64,000 nt of DNA from a virus (IMGVR_UViG_3300020049_016424:32001-96000), one strand, 5' to 3'; positions 38,561-53,593 are shown, counted from the first letter of the stretch. Notes: generated by a model not told the origin, from the sequence alone. Made by a program: numbers and translations.

Positions 38561-38671
38561 TTCGGTTGTCGGAGCTTTCGAGCCGCCCTGGCTGCGGCAG
38601 CCCACACTCCTGCCAGTGGGGTTCCAGGGGCGATTCGGGCGCCCTGCAGCCCCCAGGCGCCTCGGGGCGTC

Positions 38672-39610
38672 TCAGACGCTCCCGAGCTGCGCCCGGAGCC
38701 GTGCAGCCCGTCCTGGCGCCGTCTGGGCCAGCCAGGCGATGCGCCCGAGCAGGTGCTCCCGGAACGCCTCGGCGCTGGCGTACCCCTGCAGGCGCCCCAA
38801 GGCCTCGAGCTGCCCGGGTGCGGCGCAGGAGTGCACGATCGCGCGCAGGGCCCTGTAGTCCCGGCGAGGGACGTTGGGGTGGGCGTTGACCGTGAGCCCG
38901 AGCACCCGCTGCGCTTCGCCCCGGCCGGCGACGCGGACCTTGTCGTAGTTGACCCGGTAGCCGCTCTGGCGGACCGCTGCGAAGACCTCCTCGAACACGT
39001 CCGAGAGCGCCGCCTTGGGCAGGCGGGCCGCGCGGCTGAGCACGAGGTCGTCGGCGTAGCGGGAGTACGTCAGGCCGTGCTTGTGGGCGACGGCGCGCAT
39101 CTGCGGGTCGAGCCGCAGCCCCGCGACGAGGTTCGTCACCGCTCCGCTCGTGGGAGCCCCCTGCGGGACACGCCAGGTGCGGGCACCCTGCATGGGCACG
39201 GTGACGAGGCTTGCGAGGAGCTCGGCGAGGTCTCGCGGGACCCTGAAGGTCGCCTCGAGCGCGTCCCGCACCCAGGCCCTGCGGGTGCTTCCGAAGAAGT
39301 CCTGCAGGTCCACGGTGAAGAGCACGGCGGGGCGAGCATGCGCGGCCACGGTGGTGAGTAGCGAACGCCCCGGGACGTACGCGGCGACTTCCGGACCGAA
39401 GGGCGCGCCGTGGAGCATGCGCCGGAGCAAGCGCCGCTGCACCGTAGCGAGCGCGGGCTCGGGGATGTGCAGGACGCGTATCTTCCCGGATTTCTTACGT
39501 ATTTCGTGGCGACGATAGCTCGCAGCTCCGCGCATTGCGTAGTACGAGATCGTGGAGGACGCGATCTGAAGTTGCGCAGCGAGCGTTTCAAGATCGGCAG
39601 GGTGGAGCAT
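38672..39610 (-). CDS. Reverse transcriptase, retron-like
   Basis: IRKKSGKIRVLHIP, AYVPGRS, VAAH, DLQDFFGS, PQGAPTSG, YSRYADDL, VNYDKV, VLGLTVN; ATG overlaps upstream TGA. Confidence 0.92.
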   Translation of the reverse strand: MLHPADLETLAAQLQIASSTISYYAMRGAASYRRHEIRKKSGKIRVLHIPEPALATVQRRLLRRMLHGAPFGPEVAAYVPGRSLLTTVAAHARPAVLFTVDLQDFFGSTRRAWVRDALEATFRVPRDLAELLASLVTVPMQGARTWRVPQGAPTSGAVTNLVAGLRLDPQMRAVAHKHGLTYSRYADDLVLSRAARLPKAALSDVFEEVFAAVRQSGYRVNYDKVRVAGRGEAQRVLGLTVNAHPNVPRRDYRALRAIVHSCAAPGQLEALGRLQGYASAEAFREHLLGRIAWLAQTAPGRAARLRAQLGSV

Positions 39611-40188
39611 CAGCACATCTCCTGGCGCGCTACGAGGTACCGGGAGCTGCATGTGGAGGTCCCCGGACGGCAGGGCTTGAACATCCGGAGCAATACGTGG
39701 GGGCACCCCGCGCATACGTGCTCGACCACGCCTTCGGCGGGTGCGATGAGCGTGCGCAGCGGGGGGTATACGCGTTCGTGCGCGACGATCACCGCTAGGT
39801 AGTGGCGCTCGGCCCGCTCTCCATATGCCCCGTACTCCCGAAGCGCATCCGTGAGCGTCCGCGCGCGCGCGAGGGCGTGGTCACCATTTGCCTCGAGCGG
39901 GAATCCGAGATACGCGTTATCGAGCGGGATGTAGAGCCAAGGCGCCTGCAGGTGTGTGAATGCCTCGATGCCGCGCAGGAGCTGCGGCAAGGGGATGAGC
40001 AAGCACGGACCGAACTGGGCATAGGGGTCCGTGCGTACCGAGAAATCTTGCACGTACGCTCGCCCGTTCCAGGTTTTGATCTTCCACGCCTGGTGGTTCG
40101 GCAAGTAGCCGTACCTGACATGCAGTGAGGAGTTGCCGAGCCCTTTAGTGTTCGTGTCGAGGACGGCCAGGGACGGCAGTTCCGTCAC
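39610..40188 (-). CDS. Hypothetical protein with C-terminal Cys cluster, coupled between VWA and RT
   Basis: GTGA overlap upstream, TGATG overlap downstream; CAGC...C...C. Confidence 0.65.
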   Translation of the reverse strand: MTELPSLAVLDTNTKGLGNSSLHVRYGYLPNHQAWKIKTWNGRAYVQDFSVRTDPYAQFGPCLLIPLPQLLRGIEAFTHLQAPWLYIPLDNAYLGFPLEANGDHALARARTLTDALREYGAYGERAERHYLAVIVAHERVYPPLRTLIAPAEGVVEHVCAGCPHVLLRMFKPCRPGTSTCSSRYLVARQEMC

Positions 40189-41252
40189 GCTGCCTCGCGG
40201 TGTTCTCCGAGATCGTACGGGCGCATGAAGATCGTCATGTTGCCCGCAGCCGTCGTCACCGGCCGTTCGTTACGGCCCGGCGTGATGAGCCAAAGCGTCG
40301 GCACATCGATTCGGGTGGTGGGCGCGGTGCACTCGCCGTCGGTGGCGTAGACGACCATGTCGACGCCGAAGCCTTCCTTCTGCTTCTCGACGATGTACGC
40401 GAGCGCCGGGTCGAAGTCCGTACCTCCACGGCCCTTCATGTTGAAATCGATGTCGGTCTCGGCCCTGATCTCTTGCCAAGACTGCACGGCGGCGTCTGCG
40501 TAGATCAGGTAGACCTCGAGCCCGGGGCACTTGCGCAGCAGCTGCTGCAGCTCGCTCATCGCGGCCTGCAGGTCGGCCGTGCCCATGGACCCCGAAGTGT
40601 CGACGACCCACGCGATGCGGTAGCAGAACACCTTCGTGATGCCCGGGAAGAGCGGCACACGGGAGCCGAGGTGGCGCTGCCCTCGCATCGTCAGATGCTT
40701 GGCCATGGCCGCGCGCTGGTTGCTGATGCGGGAATAGCCGCGCTGCCGCTTGGCGTCGACGTAGCGCGCCACCATGGACGCGAAGATCTCGGTCCAGTCG
40801 ACCGTCGCCGGGCGCAGGATGTTCTCGATGAGCTCCATGACGTTCGAGGGCGCGTAGCCGCGATACTTGCTGCCCATGGTCTTCGCCGCGGTCTTGAGGA
40901 CCTTCTTCGCGTGCTGCTCGAGCGCGAGCGCCTGCATCTCGAGGTCTTGCAGCTGCTTGTCGTCGTCTTCCTCCTGGGTGCCGGAGTTGCTCGGACCGGA
41001 CTCCCCCGCGAGCTTCTCGTAGAGGTGGTGCCGCAGGACCTGAACGACCTGCGACAGGAGCGTCTGTTCGACCGTCGACAGCGCCTTGACGTCGGCGTCG
41101 ATGGCTTCGCGCGAGTCGGCACCCGGGTCGAGCTTCAGCACGGCGGCGACGAGCGCTTCGGGGCTGTCGCAGTTCTCGAGATTGGCGAGCCCGAGGATCT
41201 CCATGGGGGAGGCCTGGGTATTGGCGGCGGTATCGTCTTGGATATTGCTCAT
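40185..41252 (-). CDS. VWA-domain protein (DUF2201 C-terminal type)
   Basis: MIDAS VVDTSGSM, GRGGTDF, VYATDG, upstream TVDW motif. Confidence 0.88.
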   Translation of the reverse strand: MSNIQDDTAANTQASPMEILGLANLENCDSPEALVAAVLKLDPGADSREAIDADVKALSTVEQTLLSQVVQVLRHHLYEKLAGESGPSNSGTQEEDDDKQLQDLEMQALALEQHAKKVLKTAAKTMGSKYRGYAPSNVMELIENILRPATVDWTEIFASMVARYVDAKRQRGYSRISNQRAAMAKHLTMRGQRHLGSRVPLFPGITKVFCYRIAWVVDTSGSMGTADLQAAMSELQQLLRKCPGLEVYLIYADAAVQSWQEIRAETDIDFNMKGRGGTDFDPALAYIVEKQKEGFGVDMVVYATDGECTAPTTRIDVPTLWLITPGRNERPVTTAAGNMTIFMRPYDLGEHREAA

Positions 41253-41485
41253 GGAGTAGACTTTCTAGGTAGGGGAGAGGGTAGGTTCTTGTGTTCTTGT
41301 ACCGCGAGAAGTCGCTGTCTTCGGGCAGCGTATGCGGACACGGAGAAGAGCGCGTTGTCCTGTGCAGTGAGTTCTGGCGAAGGCAGAGCTTCGTACTGTG
41401 CGCCAAGAGCGGTGTTCCGTATCCGGAACGGAATACCCGAAAGGGAGCGAATGTAGCGCCAGCGCTGGACGAAGAGGTGCTTCAT
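41249..41485 (-). CDS. MKH-family small protein
   Basis: MKHLFVQRW. Confidence 0.7.
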   Translation of the reverse strand: MKHLFVQRWRYIRSLSGIPFRIRNTALGAQYEALPSPELTAQDNALFSVSAYAARRQRLLAVQEHKNLPSPLPRKSTP

Positions 41486-41694
41486 CGCTGTCTCGTGTGT
41501 TTGTACGCGACTAGCCGGCCCCAGAGGTCTTGCGCGTGTCTCGCACGGTAAGCGGCGTCAAGACCTCGATCGAAGCGCCGGCTTCTAGTGCGGAGTTCTT
41601 GCACGTTCACGAAATCTCCGCATTGTCGCCGTCGATAACGATTCGTAGGGGAGAATGAGTGCGCTTCCCGGGGAGACGTGAACACGTGCTTCAT
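41482..41694 (-). CDS. MKH-family small protein
   Basis: MKHVFTSP. Confidence 0.7.
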   Translation of the reverse strand: MKHVFTSPREAHSFSPTNRYRRRQCGDFVNVQELRTRSRRFDRGLDAAYRARHAQDLWGRLVAYKHTRQR

Positions 41695-41903
41695 TGCGAG
41701 CCCTGCTTGTGCGACTCGAGGCGTGCGAGCAGTTGCGGGCGAAACCCGCTAACGTACAGCGGGCAGCCTTGTAAGTACCGCCGCGCGCGTGTTTCTATCT
41801 CACGTGTCTCAATGATGCGGCCGCACCTGCGCGCTTTGTGCGGATAAATGGAGACCCCTCGCAGCCCGTGGTAGTGCCAGAGCATGGTGAAGGCGTGCTT
41901 CAT
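41691..41903 (-). CDS. MKH-family small protein
   Basis: MKHAFTMLW. Confidence 0.7.
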   Translation of the reverse strand: MKHAFTMLWHYHGLRGVSIYPHKARRCGRIIETREIETRARRYLQGCPLYVSGFRPQLLARLESHKQGSQ

Positions 41904-42106
41904 CGGCGCAAGGCTTGCTTGTACAGGGAGAGGCGGCACAGTAGATCGAGCTGTAGATCGATGTCCAAGGACAAGCCTTTCCGAAGTCGACGGGCCCGCG
42001 GGTAGATCTCTTGTAAGTCGGGGTTTGGCCCGCTCATCCTACGGCGATGCGGGAGGTTGCAACTTCGCAGGGAGTAGGTCCAGCTAGACGCTAGCGCGTG
42101 TTTCAC
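41900..42106 (-). CDS. MKH-family small protein
   Basis: GTG start, KHALASSW. Confidence 0.65.
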   Translation of the reverse strand: MKHALASSWTYSLRSCNLPHRRRMSGPNPDLQEIYPRARRLRKGLSLDIDLQLDLLCRLSLYKQALRR

Positions 42107-42321
42107 GTAGGCGTTCCGTATTTCGAGATCTTGTACTGTTCGAGACGCACGGTGAGCCTGCTTCGCGCAATGATTTGTAGTACGAACGCGTCCTGTGCCG
42201 TGCGTTCCCGTGACATGACCGGATCGTACTGAACGGCGCCACGATGCCCCACCAGGCGCTCGCGCCACGGGTGAGGGGCGTCCAGGGCGTATACCCATGT
42301 GGACACGAAGATGTGCTTCAT
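42103..42321 (-). CDS. MKH-family small protein
   Basis: MKHIFVSTW. Confidence 0.7.
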   Translation of the reverse strand: MKHIFVSTWVYALDAPHPWRERLVGHRGAVQYDPVMSRERTAQDAFVLQIIARSRLTVRLEQYKISKYGTPT

Positions 42322-42524
42322 GAGTTCCTCGCGCTCTTGTAGTCCTGAAGCCGCGTGCGGAGCTCTCTGCGTGCGATACGCCGGGCAATGGCCGCGTTCC
42401 GGTCTCTACGAGCTCGCGTCAAGATGTTTTCTTGCACAAGAAGCTCGGCGACGCGTCGTTCACGAGCAGGAAGCGACGTCTGCCACCCTGTGCGCCACCA
42501 GCGTGAGCAGAATACGTGTTTCAC
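42318..42524 (-). CDS. MKH-family small protein
   Basis: GTG start, KHVFCSRWW. Confidence 0.7.
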   Translation of the reverse strand: MKHVFCSRWWRTGWQTSLPARERRVAELLVQENILTRARRDRNAAIARRIARRELRTRLQDYKSARNS

Positions 42525-42733
42525 GGTGCCGCCTTCTTGGCTAACTGCCAACGGTACAGACGGTGACATAGCGCTTGCTGCGCCGAGTAGACCTGGTGAT
42601 CCCGCGCGCGGTCGCGCTGAGCTCGCGTAGGGATCTCTTCATGCAAGGTGTGCTGGCCCTCGACTCTCCAGCGGTATGGGTCGCCGCGGAGCCAGGTTCT
42701 TCGCATCCACGCGGACGTGAGGATGTGCTTCAT
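42521..42733 (-). CDS. MKH-family small protein
   Basis: MKHILTSAW. Confidence 0.7.
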   Translation of the reverse strand: MKHILTSAWMRRTWLRGDPYRWRVEGQHTLHEEIPTRAQRDRARDHQVYSAQQALCHRLYRWQLAKKAAP

Positions 42734-42960
42734 GGGGGCTCCCGGTGTTCTCGAAGCTGGCGCCGTGCGGCCTTGAAGGTCCACGCCCGCCGTTGGAGGG
42801 CGCAGCGTAGATTGTACTGAAGCCGCGCGGCGCGGGCCTCTCGAGTTTGGAACGTGAGGATGTCGTTGAAGTCGTAGAACGCGCCCACTTGCCGTTGGCG
42901 GAATAGCAACCCGTCTTCCGTGACGTGCCGTGTCCAAGTGGTTACGAAGAGATGCTTCAT
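42730..42960 (-). CDS. MKH-family small protein
   Basis: MKHLFVTTW. Confidence 0.7.
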   Translation of the reverse strand: MKHLFVTTWTRHVTEDGLLFRQRQVGAFYDFNDILTFQTREARAARLQYNLRCALQRRAWTFKAARRQLREHREPP

Positions 42961-43011
42961 GGGGACCTCGAGTTTGTGGGTACGCGGAGGACCGCCTGTG
43001 CGGGAAGCCGT

Positions 43012-43236
43012 TCACTGTCCGGTAACGATACGACGCCATCGCCGCTCTCGTTTTCGGGTCTGAGACCGGGCCTGTAGGTCTCGTCGGCCCGCCAGGGCGA
43101 GCTGGTCGTTGTTCTGGGCTCGGTGCGCCCGTGTGAGGACGTATTCGACGCGAAGCACGCCGCCTTCGGTGCGGTAGAGGAACGGCCCCAGGCTGCCGAC
43201 ACTCCGCACCCAGCGAGTCACAAAGAGATGTTTCAT
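43012..43236 (-). CDS. MKH-family small protein
   Basis: MKHLFVTRW. Confidence 0.7.
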   Translation of the reverse strand: MKHLFVTRWVRSVGSLGPFLYRTEGGVLRVEYVLTRAHRAQNNDQLALAGRRDLQARSQTRKRERRWRRIVTGQ

Positions 43237-43454
43237 CGCAACAACCCTGTGACCCTTGCCTCCCGCCACGCTGTCTTCCGTGCACGGAGGTCACGTCGTG
43301 CGCGTGACGCCGCTATCTCCGCGTCGAACCACTTTTGCGTGCGTGTGGGCACGGTTCGATACGTCACCTGATTCGCCCCGTTGAGGCGATAGGTGTAGCG
43401 CACGCCCGTGTCTGCGTGGCCGCGCTTCCACGGCGAGACGAAGACGTGTTTCAT
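43233..43454 (-). CDS. MKH-family small protein
   Basis: MKHVFVSPW. Confidence 0.7.
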   Translation of the reverse strand: MKHVFVSPWKRGHADTGVRYTYRLNGANQVTYRTVPTRTQKWFDAEIAASRARRDLRARKTAWREARVTGLLR

Positions 43455-43597
43455 GGCGGCGTCTTCTTCTTCTTCTTCAAAAAAAGACCCATGGTGCGCC
43501 ACGCTTCAGGGTAGCTCAGGTACCGATCGTAGGTTCCTTCCCAGCGCTGCCATCCGTACAAGGACTTGCGCCAGGGCGAGACGAAGACATGCTTCAT
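43451..43597 (-). CDS. MKH-family small protein (short, 48 aa)
   Basis: MKHVFVSPW; ends in T7/(GAA)n run. Confidence 0.6.
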   Translation of the reverse strand: MKHVFVSPWRKSLYGWQRWEGTYDRYLSYPEAWRTMGLFLKKKKKTPP

Positions 43598-43809
43598 TTG
43601 GCGGCTGAGTACTGCGCCAGGCGCTGTTGGGCGACCGTGTCCCAGCGCGCAGAGCGAAGCGACGCACATGTCCGCGCGAGATCTTCGAGTCGCCAGGCGC
43701 GGGTAAGAACCGCTTGTGTGCAAATGTATCGCCCTTCGTGGCGCTTTCGGTGATAACGCCCTTCGCGTAGGGAGAATCGTACCCATCGAGAGGTGAAGAT
43801 GTGCTTCAT
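43594..43809 (-). CDS. MKH-family small protein
   Basis: MKHIFTSRW. Confidence 0.7.
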   Translation of the reverse strand: MKHIFTSRWVRFSLREGRYHRKRHEGRYICTQAVLTRAWRLEDLARTCASLRSARWDTVAQQRLAQYSAAK

Positions 43810-44009
43810 GTGCGGCCCCGTTTGAAGAAGACAACGCGATACGCGAGGGCTTTGCGGGCATGGCATGCGTCGCGTATAGCGAGATAGGCGCGGCCCGCAG
43901 AATCTTGAACGATGCGGCGTTCGTAGATAGCGAAACATCGTCGCGTACGACCCCGCACTGTGCTCGTGAACTGCGTGCGCGTCCAGGCCCCTACCATAAC
44001 GTGCTTCAT
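43806..44009 (-). CDS. MKH-family small protein
   Basis: MKHVMVGAW. Confidence 0.7.
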   Translation of the reverse strand: MKHVMVGAWTRTQFTSTVRGRTRRCFAIYERRIVQDSAGRAYLAIRDACHARKALAYRVVFFKRGRT

Positions 44010-44170
44010 CGACGCGCCAGTTTGTATCTTAGAAGGCGGGTGCGTAGTTGGACGCGCGCAGTCACACGCGCGTTCTCTTGCGCAAGAAGCTCGGCGAAAC
44101 GTCGTTCACGAAAAGGGAACTGCGCCCACTGCTCTGCGCGCCACTCGCGTGTGCAGAATACGTGTTTCAT
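44006..44170 (-). CDS. MKH-family small protein (54 aa, below ORF-track cutoff)
   Basis: MKHVFCTREW...RERRFAELLAQEN; close paralog of 42318-42524. Confidence 0.65.
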   Translation of the reverse strand: MKHVFCTREWRAEQWAQFPFRERRFAELLAQENARVTARVQLRTRLLRYKLARR

Positions 44171-44361
44171 GTGCCCCTCCGTTCGTGAAGCCTGTTCAAG
44201 ATCCCACTACGGGAGCCGTACTCCCCTAGGTACTTACGCGACGCTCGCGTATCCACCCAGGTGAACTCCATGTGAATATCGATGACGTACCGGCGACGGT
44301 ATCGCCGTCCGTTCGCCACAACGTACGCGAACTCCCACAGAGATACGAATACGTGCATCAT
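44167..44361 (-). CDS. MKH-family small protein
   Basis: MMHVFVSLW. Confidence 0.7.
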   Translation of the reverse strand: MMHVFVSLWEFAYVVANGRRYRRRYVIDIHMEFTWVDTRASRKYLGEYGSRSGILNRLHERRGT

Positions 44362-44561
44362 GGACCGCGTCCCACAGCAAGGCGGTCACGCAGGTGTTCG
44401 AGGAGCACCGCCCGCGTGCTTTGTGCGTAAAACTCGCGCCCCTCTTTGTTCATGACGTGCCGCCAGGACAGGGCGAACTTCCCGGCATACCGAAGACGTA
44501 CCGTGATCTGGGCGTCGGTAATGTACTGTATCTTCCACGGCGTCACAAAGGTGTGTTTCAT
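44358..44561 (-). CDS. MKH-family small protein
   Basis: MKHTFVTPW. Confidence 0.7.
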   Translation of the reverse strand: MKHTFVTPWKIQYITDAQITVRLRYAGKFALSWRHVMNKEGREFYAQSTRAVLLEHLRDRLAVGRGP

Positions 44562-44794
44562 GATCCTCGCCTTTCCCGGCGACGCCGCTCTGCCAGAGTT
44601 CGGTAACGGATCTGCTGCTGGCGGGCCAGGCAGCCGTCGTTGAACTCACGCCCCGCGCGGTTGAGGATCCTATCGACCTCAACCCAGGTGGTGCCCCCGC
44701 GCTGGCCGGTGCCAGCCACGTGTCGCGTTCGATGGAAGACGCCGCCTTCACAGCGATTCCGAGTCTGCCACGCGCTCACAAAGACGTGTTTCAC
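44558..44794 (-). CDS. MKH-family small protein
   Basis: GTG start, KHVFVSAW. Confidence 0.7.
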   Translation of the reverse strand: MKHVFVSAWQTRNRCEGGVFHRTRHVAGTGQRGGTTWVEVDRILNRAGREFNDGCLARQQQIRYRTLAERRRRERRGS

Positions 44795-45021
44795 GGCCCT
44801 TGCCTCCGGATGGCGCGGCGCCAGTCTAGGTTTTTGTTTCGCGCGTCCTGCGCGAGCTCTTCGTTGTTTAGGTCGCGCCCCGCAAGGTCCAGCACCCGCA
44901 CGCATTCAGTGTACCTGCCCGAGAAAATATCATACCCCCAGGACACTTCTCGAATGCGGTCTCGAGTCCCTGAAGACGGGTTGAACTCTTCGCGCCAGGA
45001 CGTAGCGAGGGCGTGTTTCAC
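44791..45021 (-). CDS. MKH-family small protein
   Basis: GTG start, KHALATSW. Confidence 0.7.
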   Translation of the reverse strand: MKHALATSWREEFNPSSGTRDRIREVSWGYDIFSGRYTECVRVLDLAGRDLNNEELAQDARNKNLDWRRAIRRQGP

Positions 45022-45251
45022 AGCTCCTTATCCAGAAAGGAGTCGCGCCGCAGCAGTAACAGCAGGCGATAGTCCTGCTGCTGGTTGTGCGCGAGCCTGT
45101 CGAGAGCGTCCTTCTGCCCCGCACGATCGAGCACGTATTCCGCTTCGCGGTACCCGCGGGCCTTGTAGTGGAGCGTACGTACACGTTCTCGAAAGCCCTG
45201 TCCGCGCGGATGATCTTGAATCCGCCACGAGCTGACAAATACGTGGATCAT
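45018..45251 (-). CDS. MKH-family small protein
   Basis: MIHVFVSSW. Confidence 0.7.
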   Translation of the reverse strand: MIHVFVSSWRIQDHPRGQGFRERVRTLHYKARGYREAEYVLDRAGQKDALDRLAHNQQQDYRLLLLLRRDSFLDKEL

Positions 45252-45663: not shown

Positions 45664-45866
45664 CGGTCCCGCACTTTTTTGAGCTGTTGGAGACGCCCCT
45701 CGCGCTCCCAGCGAATTATCTCGCGGGTATGCCGCGCGTGAATGGCGCGCCCTACGGCGTCTGTGACCACGCGATACTGGTACCTGCTATGTGCGAATCG
45801 TACCTGCCGCCGCACGCCTGTGATCTCAGAATTTCGGACCCAAGCATTTACAAACGCATGCTTCAT
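45645..45866 (-). CDS. MKH-family small protein
   Basis: MKHAFVNAW. Confidence 0.7.
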   Translation of the reverse strand: MKHAFVNAWVRNSEITGVRRQVRFAHSRYQYRVVTDAVGRAIHARHTREIIRWEREGRLQQLKKVRDRCSTSL

Positions 45867-46066
45867 AGTGGCACGCCTCGTCGAGCGCGCGCGGCGCGCT
45901 GCCGCGCGTCAAGCTGCGCATCTCCGACAAGCAGAGTTTCCCACTCTCGTCCGGCCCGGTTCCGTACAAGGCGGTAGGTCAGGGTTCCATTCTCATAGCG
46001 GCGGTCGTGCTGCACATCCTGTAGGAAGGGGCAGCGGCGCCAAACAGTAGCGAACACATGTTTCAT
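45863..46066 (-). CDS. MKH-family small protein
   Basis: MKHVFATVW. Confidence 0.7.
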   Translation of the reverse strand: MKHVFATVWRRCPFLQDVQHDRRYENGTLTYRLVRNRAGREWETLLVGDAQLDARQRAARARRGVPL

Positions 46067-46278
46067 GAATACCGCTCCCATACGTAAGCCGTGTGGCGTC
46101 GTTGCAGCGCGTTGAGCAGGTCTTCGTACTCCCAGTGTCGCAACACGGCACGTCCCGCTGTAGTTCTGCGAAGACGGATGGTTCGCTGCCGCCCCTCCGT
46201 GCGCGCCTCTTGCACCAACAGGCCGTGCGGGGTGTGCGAGACCCAAGAGGCCCATGGAGACGTCAGGACATGCTTCAT
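46063..46278 (-). CDS. MKH-family small protein
   Basis: MKHVLTSPW. Confidence 0.7.
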   Translation of the reverse strand: MKHVLTSPWASWVSHTPHGLLVQEARTEGRQRTIRLRRTTAGRAVLRHWEYEDLLNALQRRHTAYVWERYS

Positions 46279-46478
46279 ACGACCTCTCGTCGGTGCCGCT
46301 GCAGGCGTAGACAAAGCATGATGCGATATCGGACGGGGTCCAGGACGAGAAGCGTCTCTAAGGTTCGCCGCGGCGAGCCGCCCTGTGGGAAGAGCTCGTC
46401 CCACTCTCCTGCCTTTCGCAGGCGCGTGTCTCCGGGCGATGTAGACATAGCCCACAAGGACACGAAGACATGTTTCAT
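46275..46478 (-). CDS. MKH-family small protein
   Basis: MKHVFVSLW. Confidence 0.7.
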   Translation of the reverse strand: MKHVFVSLWAMSTSPGDTRLRKAGEWDELFPQGGSPRRTLETLLVLDPVRYRIMLCLRLQRHRREVV

Positions 46479-46759
46479 GGCGGGTCTCGCAGCAGCCACA
46501 GGGTCAGCCGTCGCTGTAGGGCCTTACGTGCATTGAAAGTATGGAGGGTGGCGGTGCTGGAGGTTCGTATTTCCACGGGCTCAGGGGCTCTCCGCATAGA
46601 AACAGAGAGTGCCTCCATATGCCAGAGTTTGCGTCCCCAGGCGTCCACGTACAGGTAACGACTTTGGAAGTAAAAGCGGCAGTGGCGGAACTCCCGGGCG
46701 AACTCGCCACTACCCACCGCCATCGCCGTCTCCCATTTCCCCATCAGCGCATGTTTCAT
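46475..46759 (-). CDS. MKH-family small protein
   Basis: MKHALMGKW. Confidence 0.7.
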   Translation of the reverse strand: MKHALMGKWETAMAVGSGEFAREFRHCRFYFQSRYLYVDAWGRKLWHMEALSVSMRRAPEPVEIRTSSTATLHTFNARKALQRRLTLWLLRDPP

Positions 46760-47055
46760 GGCAGAGCCCTTTTCCGCGTGGAGCAGGCGTTGGTGTGGCG
46801 GCGAAGAAGCGCACCCTGCGCTTCTATGCGATGAATGACCATCACATCTCGGTCGCAGGCGACTCGGGACAGGGGAGTGCCCCATACCGCGCCTTGCCAA
46901 GGGAGTTCCCACCTCCAAGTAACGTCTCCTTGAGGTCCTCGAAGCAGGTGTTGCGTCTCCGTGTGCCCTTTGCGTAGCACGCGGTAGCGGCAGCTACGGG
47001 TTCCCAGGATCATATTCGGGGGAAAGGCCCAGGGCCCTACGAAGGTGTGCTTCAT
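46756..47055 (-). CDS. MKH-family small protein
   Basis: MKHTFVGPW. Confidence 0.7.
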   Translation of the reverse strand: MKHTFVGPWAFPPNMILGTRSCRYRVLRKGHTETQHLLRGPQGDVTWRWELPWQGAVWGTPLSRVACDRDVMVIHRIEAQGALLRRHTNACSTRKRALP

Positions 47056-47345
47056 GTTGGCACCTTAGGCTTTCGTGTGGGAGAGGCAAAAAGACGTGCT
47101 CGAAGTGCCTGACGAGCTTCTGCAATGCGCTGTCTGTGTAAGTACTCCGAGGATGGAGGTTTATCCGCGTAGGGAACGGGGATGTTGCGTAGAATCGTAG
47201 GATCTTCCGCGGTCCAGCACACGACACCGTGAATGTCTGCGTAGAACCATCGGTATTCCCACCAGAAGGTGCCCGTCGGGCGCCGCCGCGTGCAAACCCC
47301 CCAAAAAAGATGACGCTCCCAAGGGCCTACAAACGCGTGTTTCAT
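47052..47345 (-). CDS. MKH-family small protein
   Basis: MKHAFVGPW. Confidence 0.7.
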   Translation of the reverse strand: MKHAFVGPWERHLFWGVCTRRRPTGTFWWEYRWFYADIHGVVCWTAEDPTILRNIPVPYADKPPSSEYLHRQRIAEARQALRARLFASPTRKPKVPT

Positions 47346-47635
47346 GTTTTCCACTTCCAGCGGCGGAGTCGGGCCCTCCGCGTGAGCTCCTGGCGCGCTT
47401 TTACTGCGTAGTAGTCTAGAACTATGGTGTCGTGAGGAGGATGCTTCGAGACGCGTTCACCCAGAAACCGCAAGGGCGTATCTGCGTTCCGAATCCACAC
47501 CACGTCCCCCTGTCTTGTGCGCTGCAAGCAGCGAGCTTCTACCGCGTATCCCGCCCCACGCGACTGTCGACCCATCACGCCGAGGTAGCTGCCTGGCGGG
47601 TGCGTGTACCACCTGGCAACGAAGACGTGTTTCAT
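47342..47635 (-). CDS. MKH-family small protein
   Basis: MKHVFVARW. Confidence 0.7.
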   Translation of the reverse strand: MKHVFVARWYTHPPGSYLGVMGRQSRGAGYAVEARCLQRTRQGDVVWIRNADTPLRFLGERVSKHPPHDTIVLDYYAVKARQELTRRARLRRWKWKT

Positions 47636-47934
47636 AGGCGTCTCCGCGCCTCCTTTCGGCGATCAAACATGCGGTGGAAGAGCCGCGTCTGCGCGCGGTA
47701 CGCGTACTGTCGCTCCACGACTTCGTCATGGGACCACGCGGCTGCGGCCCGTAGGTTCAGAAAGGAGCGCGGCAGATCCTCCCTGCGCTGCCATTCGAAA
47801 TACCCGTACGGGGTACGGACCAGGCAGCGATTCTCGAAGGAGCCCCCTGAAAGGTTGCTGCGCTCTTGCACAGAAAGAACGCCCGTGCGCTCGAAGCGGT
47901 CCTTCCGCCACCCCGTTGTGAACGCGTGTTTCAT
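47632..47934 (-). CDS. MKH-family small protein
   Basis: MKHAFTTGW; ATG overlaps the metallopeptidase TGA. Confidence 0.7.
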   Translation of the reverse strand: MKHAFTTGWRKDRFERTGVLSVQERSNLSGGSFENRCLVRTPYGYFEWQRREDLPRSFLNLRAAAAWSHDEVVERQYAYRAQTRLFHRMFDRRKEARRRL

Positions 47935-48665
47935 GCTTGCGCGAGCGCGTCCTCCTGGACCTCCTCGATCTCGGCTGCGGCGGCGAGACGGCTCTCCTCT
48001 TTCTTCGCTGCGATCGCGGCTTCGTGCTCGGACACAGCCTCGGACATTTCGTGGATCTCTTGGCGCAGGATGCGCAGGGCGAGCGTGTAGAGCGCCTTCG
48101 GATCCTTGAGGTGCGCGCCGCCGTCGTCCATGGCGCGCGTCAGGTAGTTCTCGTAGCTCAGATCTCGGGGCTGCGGAGGCATGAGCCGGTCGGAGAGGAC
48201 CCAGTACCCGAGGGGCTGCGCGGGGTCTTCGACCCCCGGATGGTTGCGCCGCAGCTTCTCGTTCGCGGCGGCGTCGGCCATGAGGTTGTCGAAGAGCCCG
48301 AAGAGGAACTTGTCCCGGGAGGTGAGGAGCGTTTTTCGCATCCGGCGGCTGCGCGGGATGTGTCCGAGGACGACGTGCAGCACTTCGTGCTCCATCGAGG
48401 CTGTGAGCTCTTCGAGCGACATCTTCTCGGCGTCGGGGTTGATGTAGAGCACGTACCGGTTGCCGTAGGGCCCGATGGCGAACGTGTGCACCGCGCGCGT
48501 GTAGATCTGTTCGAGCGCGTTGAAGATGTGCGCGTAGTACGCGCCGTTCGCCGTGCACAGGCAGCTGATGGCTTCGCGGATCGACAGGCGCAGCGCAACG
48601 GAAGCCGGCGCAGACGCAGGACGGCGGATCTGGGGCTTGTTCTTGGACGTGGCGATGTTCGACAT
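47931..48665 (-). CDS. Putative metallopeptidase (DUF2201 N-terminal type)
   Basis: LYINPD, MEHEVLHVVLGH (HExxH), NLMADAAAN, LSYENY. Confidence 0.82.
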   Translation of the reverse strand: MSNIATSKNKPQIRRPASAPASVALRLSIREAISCLCTANGAYYAHIFNALEQIYTRAVHTFAIGPYGNRYVLYINPDAEKMSLEELTASMEHEVLHVVLGHIPRSRRMRKTLLTSRDKFLFGLFDNLMADAAANEKLRRNHPGVEDPAQPLGYWVLSDRLMPPQPRDLSYENYLTRAMDDGGAHLKDPKALYTLALRILRQEIHEMSEAVSEHEAAIAAKKEESRLAAAAEIEEVQEDALAQA

Positions 48666-48715
48666 GGGTAGTTTCCTTCGGATAGTCCGCGGGATAGATC
48701 GCGGAGGGGACCTCT

Positions 48716-48723
48716 CTTTTACC
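48716..48723 (-). promoter_or_regulatory. GGTAAAAG motif heading the peptidase-array1-VWA-RT unit
   Basis: Same 8-mer upstream of - strand genes at 15384, 26708, 28112, 50216, 52326. Confidence 0.6.
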
Positions 48724-48792
48724 GGCGCGGGACGTATTTTTCGGGCGAAGCCCCCTGTGGAATCGCGCGGGCTTTCGGGGTATCCTGCCCGC

Positions 48793-49800
48793 ATGACGAT
48801 CGTCGATGCCTACCACGGAGACCCGCGGCACACCCAGCTGCTCAGCCTGCTCGAACAGGCCCCGACCGCGCTGCCGCTCCTGAAAACGGCTTCCTTCGTG
48901 GAAGAGGCCATCGCGGACCTGCCGAACACCGCCTTCGCATGGGAAGACGCCCGGCGCTACCCGGTGCACACGCGAGAGGACGCGCTCGCTAGCCTCCTCT
49001 ACCGCTCGAAGTGCGCGGGGGCGGTGCCGAAGGACGTCGACGTGAAGCTCGCGACAGCAGCGCGCGCGTGGGACCTTGTTCCGGTCGTCGCCGAGCTCGC
49101 GCAGGCGCTGCAGTCCACGAAGACTGCCGCAGCCGCAGACCCCGAGTACGCCATCCCTTCGATGCGGCGCCTGCCGCTCGAGAGCCCGGAGCAGGTCAAG
49201 GTTGCTACCGAGGTGCTCGAGCGCGATCACCGCAAGCTCGCGTTCGACACGGCGCTCGAAGGCTTCGTCCGCCTCGCCAAGGCGGCGCAGAAGCATGGCG
49301 TGCCCCTCACGGCCAAGGTCGCTGCGCACGCGGGCCTCTGCGCCTGCGACACGGTCACGCTCGGCAATGAGATCGGGGAGCGCGCGGCGGTCACGAAGGT
49401 GGCGGCAGCCGAACAGGCATACAGCACCCTCGAGACGCTCGTGAACCAGCTCCCGTCGCGAGTCTACGATCGCGCGGTGCTCACGAAGATCGCGTCGAGT
49501 CTCCACACCCTCGACCAGCTCGGGCAGGTCGAGAACCACTACGGCAAGCGCCTACGCGATCCGCTCGAGGCGGTCTTCAACGCCGCGAGCATCAAGGTGG
49601 CGGCGCAGGGGGAGCTCTGTGACGTGGGCGGCATGCAGGTGCCGCTGCAGACGTTGATGACGCTGCCGCCCCAGATCTGGGAGCAGCTCGACGTGCCCGA
49701 GCTCGGGGAGATCGCGCAGAGCGGCGACGCAGCCCAGTTCCAGCAGGTGTTCGATACCCTGCCCCGAGACCTCAAGCTCATCCTCGCGAAGCAGCTCTGA
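48793..49800 (+). CDS. Hypothetical (probable head-associated) protein with repeated KxA motifs
   Basis: FAWEDARRYPVH / YAIPSMRRLPL internal repeat; KTAS, KTAA, KVAA, KIAS; TATCCT box upstream. Confidence 0.65.
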   Translation: MTIVDAYHGDPRHTQLLSLLEQAPTALPLLKTASFVEEAIADLPNTAFAWEDARRYPVHTREDALASLLYRSKCAGAVPKDVDVKLATAARAWDLVPVVAELAQALQSTKTAAAADPEYAIPSMRRLPLESPEQVKVATEVLERDHRKLAFDTALEGFVRLAKAAQKHGVPLTAKVAAHAGLCACDTVTLGNEIGERAAVTKVAAAEQAYSTLETLVNQLPSRVYDRAVLTKIASSLHTLDQLGQVENHYGKRLRDPLEAVFNAASIKVAAQGELCDVGGMQVPLQTLMTLPPQIWEQLDVPELGEIAQSGDAAQFQQVFDTLPRDLKLILAKQL

Positions 49801-49918
49801 TCGTTGTGCCCCTCGGAAGCCCGCAAGAGAGCCCTGGAGACACGCCGTGACGCATTCGACGCTCTCTGCCGCTGAGGCACGCAACTAAAGAACACATGAC
49901 GTTCCCGCAAAACGCGCG

Positions 49919-50197
49919 TCAGGCGTAGCCTGCAGCGCGTTGAAACGGCGTCATCCATTCTTCAATGCTGTCCACCTCGTGTTCGATCGCTTGCGCCAGG
50001 CGCGCAAAAGGCACGCCCCAGCCCAGACGGGCCGTGTACGCACGCCGCCTTGCGCGCCGCTCTAGCTCGCTGAGCGCGGTGACGTAGCGCGTCACTTCCT
50101 CTGCGCGCACGCCTGTGAGCATGCGCGGAGCGGCACAGCCGAACAGGCGCCGATAGACTCGGCGGCCACGTGCACTGGTCTTCATGTGTTTGGTCAT
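49919..50197 (-). CDS. Small Arg-rich hypothetical protein
   Basis: GGAGG RBS and GGTAAAAG upstream. Confidence 0.5.
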   Translation of the reverse strand: MTKHMKTSARGRRVYRRLFGCAAPRMLTGVRAEEVTRYVTALSELERRARRRAYTARLGWGVPFARLAQAIEHEVDSIEEWMTPFQRAAGYA

Positions 50198-50240
50198 GTA
50201 GAGTACCTCCAAGTACTTTTACCAAAAATGTGGTGCCGTT

Positions 50241-50936
50241 TTGGACGCTCCAAGCAAGCTCTTGTCAGACGATGAAACCGTCGCCTCCGTGGTCTGCAAA
50301 GCAGCACACACGCTGCTCGGCGACGGCTGGCTTTTGTGGGAGCCCGAGAGCATCTGGAAGGAGCTCGAGCATCAGCACATCGACATCTCAGAGGGCAACC
50401 GTCAGCAGCTCATGGCGGGGCGCAACCTCCTCACCACCGGGCGTTTCTTTTACGATGCGCTCGTGTTCGACGCGACCTGCGCAGCGTTCGGCAATGAGGT
50501 TCTCAGTCTCGAAATGCCGGAGAGCTCGCATGTCGCACACCTGGCCTGGGGCGTCGATGAGGCCGAGGTCATCTGCCGTGAGCACGAAGACCCGATGCTC
50601 GAGTTCGACCGTGAAGCCGTAGAGTTCACGGCCCACCAGCTGCAGCAGGAGGGTTTCGTTGTAGCCCCGAAGGAGCTCGCCTACGCCCAGGAGGCGCTCA
50701 ACCGCCGCTACCCCCGCACCGAGGAGCTCGAGGTCTTGCGTGCGGCCGTCTCGAAGGCCTACCACGAGCTCGGGCGCATCGTGACGACCGAGGGTGTGAA
50801 GACGGCTGCGGCGGCGCCGTACCCCGAGACAGCGCGGGGGGTGCAGCTCGCGCGCCTAGCGGCCGTCGAGGTCTTCCTCCAGGACCGCCGCGCTGCTCGC
50901 GCCGCGGACCTAAAGAAGAGGGCGCCACGGACCTAA
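50241..50936 (+). CDS. Hypothetical phage protein
   Basis: WLLWEPESIW, HLAWGV; GC3 bias. Confidence 0.65.
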   Translation: MDAPSKLLSDDETVASVVCKAAHTLLGDGWLLWEPESIWKELEHQHIDISEGNRQQLMAGRNLLTTGRFFYDALVFDATCAAFGNEVLSLEMPESSHVAHLAWGVDEAEVICREHEDPMLEFDREAVEFTAHQLQQEGFVVAPKELAYAQEALNRRYPRTEELEVLRAAVSKAYHELGRIVTTEGVKTAAAAPYPETARGVQLARLAAVEVFLQDRRAARAADLKKRAPRT

Positions 50937-51018
50937 AGAAGAGGGAAGACCTGCGTCCTCTCCCCTTCTTCCTAGATGGCGCCTCTTCTCAGGCGTCTCC
51001 TCTTTTCTTAGAAGCCCC

Positions 51019-52281
51019 CTACGCGGTGGCGGGCTTCTCCTTCGCCGCGCGCGCGTTCGCCGCGATCGTCCGGTTCACCATCTTCTGGTACTCCGGCACC
51101 GCGATGCGCATCGCACGCGTGAACGTGCTCAACCACGCCTGCCCCGCCGGCGTCAGCTTCTGGCCGATCTCGTGGAAGCATCCGTGGGCGTACGCGTTGT
51201 AGGTCTCGTCGCCGAGATCGCAGCAGTACCGCGCGAAGTTGCCCGGCACCTCGCTTTCCGGGGACGGCTGGTCGTTGATGAGGATGTTCGCGATGCTCTC
51301 GTTGAGCACCGCGATCACGTCACTGCGCACGTGCCCGGTGAGGCGGTGCGTGACCTTGCCCGTGTCGTCGAGCGTGGCGTTGAGCAGCCGCAGGACGCGG
51401 CCCCGCGCCTTGTCGTGGTAGGCCTCGAGCACGTCCTTCGGTTCGACGAGGACCTCGCGGTTCTTGGCGAACTCGAGGAACTTATCGGACGCGACGCTCC
51501 CGATCTGACCGGAGAGGAGCGCACCCACCGCCGGGTTCTCGTAGCATGCGGGGTTGCCGAGCAGCTGCTCGGCGCTGGTGATCACCTGGCTCACCTTCTC
51601 CCAGTTCGAGGGGCACGGGAAGCACTTACCCGCGTCGCGCGCTCCCTGGTCGTAGAAGAACGGCGCTGCGGCCGAGACGAAGTCGATGACGTCCGGATGG
51701 AAGCTCGACTTGCGCGCATGCTGGACCCAGCCGAGCAGGTCGTGCGTGACGTACGCGAAGTTGAGGCGCTTGCGGATCGCGTGATCTCGCTCGGCTTCGT
51801 TCACGAGGTAGGCGCCGCTCGAGGGGTTCATCGCGGCGACCACGATGACGTTCGGATGCAGTGCCCGGCCGTGCAGCGTGCGGTCGTCGGTGAGGCCGAA
51901 GAGCGCGTTGACGAGGGCCTTGCTGCCCCGGTTCCACTCGTCCATGAAGAGGACCGCGCAGCCGGTCTTCTCGGCCTGCTCGTTCACATCGATGAACCAG
52001 CGCGCCTGGACGAAGTCGTACGCGCTGCCGTCCTCGTTGAACATCGCGAGTGCGATCTGTTCCTCGGTCATCTGGCCGAATGGCAGGACCTGCACGTAGC
52101 CGTTCTTCGAGGCGGCCCACTGGTGCACGATCGGCGTTTTGCCGATGCCCGTCTCACCGACGAGGCACACCGCCAGGCGCTTCTTCATGCCCCACACGAC
52201 GTCGAGCATGGAAGGAACCGCCGAGAGCGCGACGGGCATGATTCCGAGCTTTTCCCAGGGGTTCGTGAGAGTTTCCGTCAT
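51019..52281 (-). CDS. MoxR-type AAA+ ATPase
   Basis: Walker A GETGIGKT, Walker B LFMDEWNR, sensor I AAMN, RKRL, PCPSNWE. Confidence 0.88.
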   Translation of the reverse strand: MTETLTNPWEKLGIMPVALSAVPSMLDVVWGMKKRLAVCLVGETGIGKTPIVHQWAASKNGYVQVLPFGQMTEEQIALAMFNEDGSAYDFVQARWFIDVNEQAEKTGCAVLFMDEWNRGSKALVNALFGLTDDRTLHGRALHPNVIVVAAMNPSSGAYLVNEAERDHAIRKRLNFAYVTHDLLGWVQHARKSSFHPDVIDFVSAAAPFFYDQGARDAGKCFPCPSNWEKVSQVITSAEQLLGNPACYENPAVGALLSGQIGSVASDKFLEFAKNREVLVEPKDVLEAYHDKARGRVLRLLNATLDDTGKVTHRLTGHVRSDVIAVLNESIANILINDQPSPESEVPGNFARYCCDLGDETYNAYAHGCFHEIGQKLTPAGQAWLSTFTRAMRIAVPEYQKMVNRTIAANARAAKEKPATA

Positions 52282-53581: not shown

Positions 53582-53593
53582 GGCGGACCTTGG

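What the first reader, a model, noticed from the sequence alone, without database searches (positions are those of the whole stretch)
38672..52281. Candidate system: AAA+ ATPase, split metallopeptidase/VWA pair, 30-gene MKH array and reverse transcriptase
Seen: one almost gap-free - strand unit runs GGTAAAAG motif (48716) > HExxH peptidase (47931-48665) > 30 MKH ORFs > VWA (40185-41252) > Cys-cluster ORF > RT, joined by stop/start overlaps. A MoxR-type AAA+ ATPase lies 2.4 kb upstream, directly after array 2. Established: MoxR AAA+ ATPases partner VWA proteins, and DUF2201-type proteins usually carry the N-terminal metallopeptidase and C-terminal VWA in one polypeptide. Here those halves are separated by exactly the array, with ATGA at both junctions (GCA-TGA/ATG-AAA and CCA-TGA/ATG-AGC), as if cassettes accumulated at one ATGA site. 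Inference: the AAA/VWA/peptidase machine may recognise or cleave the MKH tag, and the RT may generate or diversify the cassettes.
Basis: partly seen in the sequence, partly recalled or inferred. Interest (0 to 1): 0.9.

Follow-up and report, generated by a model that had tools for sequence, protein, structure and literature searches.

The report
Micro-gene array inside a split phage gene
A 183-kb phage carries about 80 fast-evolving, very basic mini-protein genes. One 30-gene array of them sits exactly between the two halves of a split chaperone-peptidase gene, but related phages keep that ATPase/peptidase-VWA/reverse-transcriptase block without any such array, so the array is most likely a lodger rather than part of the machine.

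Summary
On the minus strand, a promoter-like GGTAAAAG motif is followed by a DUF2201_N HExxH peptidase ORF, 30 tiled MKH ORFs, a DUF2201 VWA ORF, a 4-Cys ORF and a retron-type RT. Of 33 junctions, 31 are 4-nt RTGA overlaps. An AAA_5 (MoxR-like) ATPase lies 2.35 kb upstream.

The system interpretation is mostly not supported. Six related large phages carry the same block (AAA, two opposite genes, DUF2201, about 200-aa CxxC protein, RT) with no MKH genes in the parts read. In four the DUF2201 is fused; in two it is split into adjacent ORFs. The AAA-to-RT block therefore exists without MKH in these relatives; whether the split came before the array rests on parsimony.

MKH genes (about 80, 11% of the genome, five or six arrays) are real proteins:
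- Codon third positions vary in the start motif.
- AF2 gives pLDDT 93 for a three-strand-plus-helix fold with no known relative.
- Median pI is 10.8.

They are orphans in all databases searched and evolve fast (dN/dS about 1, GC3 0.67 against about 0.87). A near-identical strain differs by three cassettes.

No DGR signature, integrase or RT link was found. Other first-stage notes on this same genome flag the same arrays.

The parts
51019..52281 (-). AAA_5 (MoxR/midasin-type) AAA+ ATPase, 420 aa. Walker A GETGIGKT, Walker B VLFMDE. Its own promoter-like motif lies at 52326-52333.
   Evidence: Pfam AAA_5 3.5e-9. phrog_1297 ATPase 4.4e-38. Closest solved chain is the midasin AAA ring. Motifs; promoter motif. 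An orthologue sits at the same position in relatives.
48793..50936 (+). Two opposite-strand genes of unknown function (about 335 aa at 48793-49800 and about 231 aa at 50241-50936). They separate the AAA gene from DUF2201 in every relative examined.
   Evidence: Gene calls in near-identical contig L005 (238 and 335 aa) and in L001, L003, L010, L020, L021 and the P0007 contig. No Pfam or PHROG match.
48716..48745 (-). Promoter-like element: CGAAAAA, about 14 nt, then GGTAAAAGA, just upstream of the peptidase ORF. It probably starts the peptidase - MKH array - VWA - Cys - RT transcription unit (inferred).
   Evidence: GGTAAAAG occurs 14 times on the minus strand and once on the plus strand. About 12 of the 14 have the upstream A-rich box (usually CGAAAA or CAAAA).
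47931..48665 (-). N-terminal half of a split DUF2201 protein: zincin-like metallopeptidase, 244 aa, with HEVLH...H.
   Evidence: Pfam DUF2201_N 6.9e-6, profile 43-135 of 271. phrog_1314 profile 14-127. 30-38% identical to the peptidase ORFs of L001 and L003 and to the N-terminus of the fused L010 protein; H93, E94 and H97 are invariant in 20 sequences.
41249..47934 (-). Array A: 30 head-to-tail MKH micro-genes of 48-100 codons. Each starts M-K-H-x-F-x-x-x-W. 28 of the 29 internal junctions are 4-nt RTGA overlaps, and an SD-like GGAGG lies at -10 to -6.
   Evidence: AF2 model at pLDDT 93.2 for member 43236-43454. pI and composition. GC3 of 0.67. dN/dS of about 1.
40185..41252 (-). C-terminal half of the split DUF2201 protein, 355 aa: the last third of the DUF2201_N model plus a VWA domain with MIDAS DTSGS...TDG.
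   Evidence: Pfam DUF2201 1.8e-14 and DUF2201_N profile 188-257. phrog_1314 profile 153-381 at 2e-31. 143 homologues, the more distant ones being fused proteins of 480-590 aa. 3 non-synonymous against 8 synonymous changes between strains.
39610..40188 (-). 192-aa protein with an invariant C-terminal CxxC-x10-C-x6-C cluster. It is found between DUF2201 and the RT in all relatives.
   Evidence: Alignment of six orthologues with C159, C162, C173 and C180 invariant. Weak pairwise match to L002. No family match. The AF2 model was unusable, pLDDT 40.
38672..39610 (-). Retron-type reverse transcriptase, 312 aa, YADD at residue 185. Its start overlaps the Cys ORF stop (TGATG).
   Evidence: Pfam RVT_1 1.3e-16. 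PADLOC RT_other 5.6e-67 and RT_outgroup 6.9e-66. NCBIfam retron models at 1e-45 to 1e-51 but below their cut-offs. The 14 best solved matches are all retron RTs; a group II intron RT follows at 3.3e-5. Sequence.
38176..38671 (-). Non-coding stretch after the RT. It holds GGTTAG/CTAACC repeats, a strong AT-armed hairpin (TATATATATGTGTG...CACTCATATATATA) and a pyrimidine-rich tract of about 150 nt with two CTCCTATACACCC copies. Function unknown.
   Evidence: Sequence; repeats. The fold of 38420-38560 gives -52.1 kcal/mol, z = -4.45. L001 has a similar gap of about 600 nt with TATATAT-armed repeats after its RT. No Rfam match.
52357..59550 (-). Further MKH arrays lying between the terminase gene and the AAA gene: 52357-53581, 54009-55172 and 55721-59550. 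They include a deletion scar at 55695-55721.
   Evidence: Three-cassette difference against strain contig L022.
62455..64000 (-). MKH array D, which continues past the window end to genome position 96685. Members are 101-108 aa.

Best explanation
Two separate things are superimposed here.

(1) A conserved core block of a clade of large phages. Its order is: MoxR-type AAA+ ATPase, two opposite-strand genes, a DUF2201 zincin-peptidase/VWA co-chaperone, a 4-Cys protein of about 200 aa, and a retron-type RT. It lies beside the terminase, PolA, RuvC and RNR genes. DUF2201 is one polypeptide with a low-complexity linker in the more distant relatives. In the nearer relatives it is split at that linker into two translationally coupled ORFs.

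(2) A lineage-specific, fast-evolving family of about 80 small, very basic proteins: the MKH family, a three-stranded sheet plus a long Arg-rich helix. I infer that it expanded by tandem duplication. Its cassettes are lost by short-homology recombination at cassette borders. One array landed in the ATGA(A) stop/start junction between the two DUF2201 halves. The cassettes are themselves bounded by ATGA(A/G), so reading frames and translational coupling of the downstream VWA, Cys and RT genes are kept, and the array is now co-transcribed with them.

Shown: the anatomy, the split-gene homology, conservation of the block without MKH genes, the protein-coding nature and fold of MKH, its orphan status, rapid evolution, and a cassette-level difference between strains.

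Inferred: the order of events (split first, array later); the recombination mechanism of insertion; and the function. I take MKH proteins to be nucleic-acid-binding host-takeover or counter-defence proteins made early or in the middle of infection. I take the MoxR/DUF2201 pair to act as an assembly or maturation chaperone-peptidase independent of MKH.
For: Split gene of a single lineage:
- The Pfam DUF2201_N profile is divided between the two ORFs.
- phrog_1314 is divided 14-127 and 153-381.
- Both halves are most similar to the same relatives.
- Fused 482-587-aa forms exist, with an acidic/Gly/Gln linker at the split point.

Block without MKH:
- L001/L002 and L003 have adjacent split halves, then the Cys protein and RT, with the AAA gene upstream.
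- L010, L020, L021 and the P0007 contig have the fused form in the same order.
- No MKH ORFs and no HMM hits were found in L001, L003 or L010.
- In L003 the junction between the halves is itself an ATGAAG overlap.

MKH genes are real and independent of the block:
- About 80 copies in five or six arrays, only one of them inside the block.
- Third-codon positions are free within the conserved start motif, and an SD-like motif precedes it.
- AF2 pLDDT 93.2.
- Median pI 10.8, Arg 16%.
- The only hits among 5.8 billion and 1.84 billion proteins, and in DNA scans of viral and metagenome contigs, are this phage's own lineage.

Fast turnover:
- dN/dS about 1.0 against 0.33-0.37 for the Cys and RT genes.
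- GC3 0.66-0.69 against 0.81-0.92.
- Neighbouring cassettes are the most alike.
- A 99.8%-identical strain carries three extra cassettes where the window has an 8-codon scar, MMHPKELP, with CAC microhomology, and coupling is preserved.

No RT signature:
- Retron-type RT, no repeat pair, a substitution spectrum dominated by ordinary transitions, and no integrase.

The same promoter-like motif precedes the AAA gene and the peptidase operon.
Against: - Only 14-21 kb of each relative's contig could be read, so MKH-like genes elsewhere in those genomes are not excluded. L001 has two small overlapping ORFs starting MP[IV]V...W that I could not relate to MKH.
- The order 'split first, array second' rests on parsimony. 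The reverse order would also leave an ATGA-joined split like that of L003: an array insertion creates the split, and the array is later lost in L001 and L003.
- Placing 6.7 kb of cassettes inside an operon of conserved genes, under the same promoter class as the AAA gene, fits a functional tie as well as it fits hitch-hiking.
- The function of MKH proteins is inferred only from size, charge and fold. No structural or sequence relative was found.
- dN/dS of about 1 and low GC3 could also mean weak or no selection.
Confidence: 0.6

Rival explanations
1. The MoxR ATPase with the split peptidase/VWA pair recognises or cleaves the shared MKH N-terminal tag, and the RT creates or diversifies cassettes that pile up at one ATGA site.
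For: Array A lies exactly between the two halves and upstream of the RT in one translationally coupled unit. Another array ends directly in front of the AAA gene, and both operons carry the same promoter-like motif. The tag is invariant at M1 and H3 and nearly so at W9. Cassettes do come and go as units.
Against: - The block is conserved in six related contigs with no MKH genes in the parts read.
- Most MKH genes lie in arrays remote from the peptidase and RT.
- The model places the tag residues in the first strand of the fold (strand 10-13 plus a bridge at residue 6) rather than as a free leader.
- The RT is retron-type, no template/variable repeat pair exists, and strain differences have no A bias and look like recombination patches.
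- The one documented cassette change is a microhomology deletion, not a cDNA insertion.
Confidence: 0.07
2. MKH proteins are virion internal or ejected proteins, like the T4 IP proteins. The shared N-terminus would be a capsid-targeting tag. The MoxR/DUF2201 chaperone-peptidase would act in virion maturation, so the two would be linked only through head assembly.
For: - MKH proteins are small and very basic, with a shared N-terminus of about 9 aa and a variable remainder, and they sit in tandem next to the terminase gene.
- From my own knowledge, T4 IPI-III are small basic proteins with a conserved 10-aa capsid targeting sequence in a hyperplastic locus. The papers listed were not opened.
- Iyer et al. 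2021 propose a virion-assembly and proteolysis role for the jumbo-phage MoxR-vWA(peptidase) pair (PMC7824862).
Against: There is no sequence or structural similarity to any PHROG or PDB entry. The N-terminus is modelled as part of the fold. The arrays are on the opposite strand from the structural genes. Eighty different cargo proteins is far beyond any known case.
Confidence: 0.15
3. The arrays are decaying or selfish filler. They would be duplicated ORFs under little or no selection, kept open only because a stop or frameshift would break the translational coupling needed by downstream genes.
For: dN/dS is about 1.0 between strains. GC3 is 0.67, close to GC1, unlike every ordinary gene of the phage. 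Amino-acid composition is partly like that of random GC-rich sequence. Three cassettes are dispensable in the window strain.
Against: All of about 80 ORFs are intact, with start motif and SD-like site. Fold-determining positions are conserved across paralogues that share only 20-40% identity, and these give a pLDDT 93 model. Subfamily-specific motifs such as GYSGYY...AEP are kept. About 20 kb (11%) of a packaged genome is costly filler.
Confidence: 0.1

Closest known systems
MoxR AAA+ / vWA co-chaperone pair with an N-terminal zincin peptidase on the vWA protein (Pfam DUF2201_N + DUF2201), described in group 2.2 jumbo phages (Iyer et al. 2021, PMC7824862)
   Same: AAA_5 ATPase with Walker A and B motifs; an HExxH zincin domain; a VWA domain with a MIDAS motif; a phage setting. 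The ATPase lies near the vWA gene, and that arrangement is conserved across relatives.
   Different: Here and in two relatives the peptidase and VWA parts are separate ORFs. In this phage they lie 6.7 kb apart with 30 unrelated micro-genes between them. The pair is followed by a 4-Cys protein and a retron-type RT, a linkage I found in no paper.
Retron reverse transcriptases (Ec86, Ec67, Ec78/St85)
   Same: These are the best sequence matches of the RT: the 14 best PDB hits are all retron RTs, followed by a group II intron RT at 3.3e-5, and PADLOC retron-clade models match as well. YADD is present and the size is about 310 aa.
   Different: The RT is encoded by a phage as a syntenic core gene. 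There is no intergenic space upstream for an msr-msd, no Rfam match, and no known retron effector next to it. The VTG position reads VLG; the first-stage note reads the NAxxH position as VAAH. Scores lie below NCBIfam family cut-offs.
T4-type internal proteins and their capsid targeting sequence, in hyperplastic IP loci
   Same: Small basic proteins in tandem that share only a short N-terminal motif while the rest varies.
   Different: No homology. There are about 80 copies instead of a handful. The motif is predicted to be part of the fold. No protease site or virion evidence exists.
Integron cassette arrays
   Same: One-directional, promoter-less cassettes downstream of one promoter, inserted at a defined junction, with cassette-level presence or absence between strains.
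   Different: There is no tyrosine recombinase in the genome and no attC sites. Cassette borders are the coding start motif and the ATGA overlap. All cassettes are paralogues of one family.
Diversity-generating retroelements
   Same: An RT lies next to hypervariable protein genes in a phage.
   Different: The RT is not of the DGR clade. No template/variable repeat pair is present, strain differences show no adenine-specific changes, and no Avd-like gene was recognised.

Membership tests
MoxR-vWA (DUF2201) chaperone pair | AAA+ ATPase of the AAA_5/MoxR group with Walker A and B motifs | tested here: met
   Pfam AAA_5 3.5e-9. phrog_1297 4.4e-38. GETGIGKT and VLFMDE. Closest solved chain is midasin.
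MoxR-vWA (DUF2201) chaperone pair | Zincin-like DUF2201_N domain with HExxH | tested here: met
   DUF2201_N 6.9e-6. HEVLH, with H93, E94 and H97 invariant in 20 relatives.
MoxR-vWA (DUF2201) chaperone pair | VWA-like DUF2201 domain with a MIDAS motif | tested here: met
   PF09967 1.8e-14. DTSGS and ATDG are present.
MoxR-vWA (DUF2201) chaperone pair | Peptidase and VWA in one polypeptide | tested here: not met
   There are two ORFs 6.7 kb apart. They are also split, but adjacent, in L001 and L003, and fused in L010, L020, L021 and the P0007 contig.
Retron | RT of the retron clade | tested here: met
   PADLOC RT_other and RT_outgroup at 1e-66 to 1e-67. The 14 best PDB matches are all retron RTs. 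NCBIfam retron models score below their cut-offs.
Retron | Adjacent msr-msd non-coding RNA with flanking inverted repeats | tested here: inconclusive
   There is no space upstream, because the RT start overlaps the Cys ORF. No Rfam match. A structured region lies downstream, but nothing identifies it as msr-msd.
Retron | Known effector partner | tested here: not met
   The neighbouring proteins have no PADLOC match.
Diversity-generating retroelement | Template/variable repeat pair and adenine-specific variation | tested here: not met
   No repeat longer than 39 nt in 35000-42000. Strain substitutions: G>A 23, A>G 22, C>T 16, T>C 16, with no A bias.
Integron | Tyrosine recombinase (IntI) | tested here: not met
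   PF00589 has no match in the 182,833-bp genome, while the controls were positive.
T4-type internal proteins | Presence in the virion and removal of the N-terminal tag by the prohead protease | not testable with these tools
   This needs virion proteomics. There is no sequence or fold similarity.

The most novel reading that the evidence does not exclude
The MKH N-terminus is a recognition tag for the MoxR/DUF2201 peptidase-VWA machine, which would process, load or unfold these proteins. Insertion of the cassette array is itself what split DUF2201 in this clade, and the neighbouring retron-type RT contributes to cassette birth. This would make it a phage system that generates and matures a hypervariable micro-protein repertoire.
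Probability: 0.07. Interest if true: 0.85.

Novelty: new variant of a known kind. Interest (0 to 1): 0.55.

Why it matters
- It gives a clean natural series for a phage co-chaperone gene: fused, then split, then split with a 30-gene insertion. This shows that ATGA stop/start junctions can take up whole cassette arrays without breaking an operon.
- It defines an orphan family of about 80 micro-proteins with a confidently predicted fold that has no known relative, cassette-level turnover between strains, and 11% of a phage genome devoted to it. Such rapidly diversifying small basic proteins are candidates for host takeover or counter-defence.
- It shows that a retron-type RT with a 4-Cys partner is a syntenic core gene of a clade of large phages, next to the MoxR/DUF2201 pair. 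I found no description of this linkage.
- For this finding specifically, it removes most of the case for a single AAA/VWA/peptidase/MKH/RT machine.

Tried and rejected
- Co-folding the peptidase half (20-row alignment) with an MKH protein (60-row alignment) gave no verdict, score 0.01. I do not use it either way.
- The AF2 model of the Cys protein from 6 sequences had pLDDT 40 and was unusable.
- Fold searches with the MKH model gave nothing above noise. Foldseek against PDB and BFVD, VIA-align wide and the ESM Atlas all failed (best Z 3.7). Chromo/COMM/Pur-alpha-like and WGR rows are only weak look-alikes.
- Family scans of MKH proteins gave no consistent match: Pfam and PHROGs on all 60 members, NCBIfam and PADLOC on two or three members, and a PDB profile search.
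- Megablast of the region against GenBank phages found no match.
- The search for related loci with each DUF2201 half in IMG/VR found no relatives.
- DNA pattern scans for MKH starts found only chance hits (L015, L016, L019) and this phage's own variants.
- The relatives' full records could not be searched because they are not held.
- DGR and integron readings were rejected.
- The idea that the start motif is an RNA or DNA element rather than protein was rejected, because third codon positions vary freely.

Full report
**Setting.** The window is positions 32001-96000 of a single-contig viral record of 182,833 bp with 64.7% GC, rated complete by CheckV. It encodes a large terminase and structural proteins. 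GenBank phages hold no close relative: megablast finds nothing, and the best terminase match is 29% identical.

**Observation.**
- The AAA gene (51019-52281) matches Pfam AAA_5 and phrog_1297 and has Walker A and B motifs.
- The ORF at 47931-48665 matches DUF2201_N profile positions 43-135 and carries HEVLH.
- The ORF at 40185-41252 matches DUF2201_N positions 188-257 and the DUF2201 VWA domain, with a MIDAS motif.
- PHROG family 1314 is divided the same way: profile 14-127 in the first ORF and 153-381 in the second.
- Between the two ORFs lie exactly 30 ORFs starting M-K-H-x-F-x-x-x-W.
- The RT is 312 aa, starts at 39610 through a TGATG overlap with the Cys ORF, and has YADD.
- GGTAAAAG at 48716-48723 is one of 14 exact minus-strand copies, against one on the plus strand. 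About 12 of the 14 have an A-rich box (usually CGAAAA or CAAAA) about 14-15 nt upstream. Another such site sits before the AAA gene. I read these as a phage promoter class; that is an inference.

**What the relatives show.** The VWA half has 143 homologues.
- A 98%-identical protein lies on contigs L005-L009. These are 98-99% identical to the window and carry the same 30 cassettes.
- The next relatives are short, VWA-only proteins. On L001/L002 (45% identity) and L003 (38%), a separate peptidase ORF lies directly in front of the VWA ORF. The gap is 38 nt in L001, and in L003 there is an ATGAAG overlap. A Cys protein of about 190-216 aa and an RT follow, and the AAA gene and two opposite-strand genes lie upstream.
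- More distant relatives on contigs of 86-190 kb (L010, L020, L021 and the P0007 contig) have a fused DUF2201 of 482-587 aa in the same gene order, flanked by PolA, the terminase, RuvC and RNR. The fused L010 protein has an acidic, Gly/Gln-rich linker exactly where the others are split.
- No MKH ORF and no hit with an MKH profile occurs in the parts of L001, L003 or L010 that I could read.

So the AAA, DUF2201, Cys-protein and RT block is a conserved core block of a phage clade that exists without MKH genes. The split into two ORFs is also seen without any array.

**The MKH genes.** The genome holds about 80 of them, all on the minus strand, in five or six arrays totalling about 20.4 kb, or 11% of the genome. 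Only array A is inside the block.

They are protein-coding:
- In the start motif, codon positions 1 and 2 are conserved while third positions vary freely (for example C 57 against T 23 at the His codon, and all four bases at the next two codons).
- A GGAGG-like site lies at -10 to -6.
- With 60 paralogues as the alignment, AlphaFold2 gives a pLDDT 93.2 model. It has an N-terminal strand (residues 10-13, with a bridge at residue 6), two further strands and a 32-residue helix. The shared 'tag' therefore looks like the first strand of the fold rather than a detachable leader.

The proteins are small (median 77 aa) and very basic: median pI is 10.8, 78 of 80 have pI above 9, and Arg makes up 16%. 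No fold or sequence relative was found in PDB, BFVD, the ESM Atlas, Pfam or PHROGs.

The family is an orphan. A word-based search of 5.8 billion proteins, an exhaustive profile search of 1.84 billion representatives, and DNA scans of IMG/VR and JGI metagenome contigs returned only this phage's own lineage.

**Evolutionary behaviour.**
- Paralogues are 20-50% identical, and neighbours are the most alike.
- GC3 is 0.66-0.69, against 0.81-0.92 in ordinary genes of this phage.
- Between strains, differences cluster in patches at 41043-42453 and 39803-39960. In the MKH patch dN/dS is about 1.0 (45.5 non-synonymous against 14.5 synonymous changes, with no new stops). The Cys and RT genes give 0.33-0.37, and the VWA gene has 3 non-synonymous against 8 synonymous changes.
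- The only indels in the unit are in frame.
- Contig L022, 99.8% identical over 9.8 kb, carries three extra cassettes. At that place the window has an 8-codon remnant, MMHPKELP. The breakpoints share CAC, and ATGA coupling is preserved on both sides.

Cassettes therefore turn over as units by short-homology recombination.

**The RT.** By PADLOC, NCBIfam and PDB matches it belongs to the retron clade.
- No repeat pair is present near it, and the genome has no tyrosine recombinase.
- Strain substitutions are ordinary transitions without adenine bias.
- It has no upstream space for an msr-msd, and Rfam finds nothing.
- A non-coding stretch of about 500 nt after it contains a strong hairpin (z = -4.45) and a pyrimidine-rich repeat tract. 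L001 has a comparable gap after its RT. What the RT copies remains unknown.

**Most likely explanation (confidence 0.6).** A lineage-specific family of fast-evolving, basic micro-proteins expanded by tandem duplication. One array settled into the ATGA(A) junction of an already split DUF2201 gene. Because the cassettes are bounded by the same ATGA(A/G) signal, coupling to the VWA, Cys and RT genes was kept. The MoxR/DUF2201 pair probably works as the chaperone-peptidase proposed for jumbo phages (PMC7824862), independently of MKH.

The function of MKH proteins is inferred only. I favour nucleic-acid binding in host takeover or counter-defence. The Met-Lys-His N-terminus also fits the X-X-His copper/nickel-binding pattern; this comes from my own knowledge and is untested.

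**Rivals.**
- A T4-IP-like packaged cargo (0.15).
- Weakly selected filler (0.10).
- An alternative order of events cannot be excluded: the array insertion created the split, and the array was later lost in L001 and L003.

**Limits.**
- Only parts of the relatives' contigs could be read.
- Expression data could not be obtained.
- The co-fold of peptidase and MKH gave no verdict.
- Other first-stage notes on overlapping windows of this same genome describe the same arrays and the RT. They are not independent evidence.

Noticed in passing
window 38176-38671 (minus strand): Non-coding stretch of about 500 nt after the RT. It holds GGTTAG/CTAACC repeats, an AT-armed hairpin inside a fold with z = -4.45, and a pyrimidine-rich tract with two CTCCTATACACCC copies. 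Relative L001 has a similar gap of about 600 nt with TATATAT-armed repeats after its RT (L001:12496-13091). It could be the RT's template RNA, an origin or a regulatory region.
   Followed up: partly
genome-wide; in the window at 7060, 15391, 26715, 28119, 48723, 50223, 52333 (5' end, minus strand): GGTAAAAG occurs 14 times on the minus strand and once on the plus strand. About 12 of the 14 have an A-rich box (usually CGAAAA or CAAAA) about 14-15 nt upstream. This looks like a phage-specific promoter class.
   Followed up: partly
window 55695-55721 (minus strand), against L022:9792-10614: An 8-codon ORF, MMHPKELP, is the scar of a three-cassette deletion relative to a 99.8%-identical strain. 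The breakpoints share CAC, and ATGA coupling is kept.
   Followed up: yes
window 39803-39960 (Cys ORF) and 41043-42453: Strain differences are concentrated in two patches: 25 substitutions within 158 bp of the Cys ORF, and about 72 in the last six MKH cassettes plus the first 210 nt of the VWA gene. The rest of the 11-kb unit differs by about 0.1%. This looks like mosaic recombination with a more divergent lineage.
   Followed up: partly
window 49883-50337: Variant contig L005 has about 80 bp where the window has about 454 bp. The segment lies between the two opposite-strand genes and includes a promoter-like motif at 50223 and a small minus-strand ORF starting MTKHMKTS.
   Followed up: no
phrog_1314; GenBank records of phages AR9, PBS1 and XC38: The DUF2201 peptidase-VWA family is labelled 'HNH endonuclease' in PHROGs and in several RefSeq phage records. 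This looks like a propagated misannotation.
   Followed up: no
contig of P0007 (no DNA held): In one relative, the gap between the AAA gene and the two opposite-strand genes holds seven small genes, including an Acb5-family (PF26761) protein. This suggests the block's gaps are accessory-gene hot spots.
   Followed up: no
L001:111-633: Two small overlapping ORFs beside the terminase start MPIVDRAVW and MPVVETVWY. They might be a distant or analogous tagged micro-gene pair, but the MKH profile does not detect them.
   Followed up: partly
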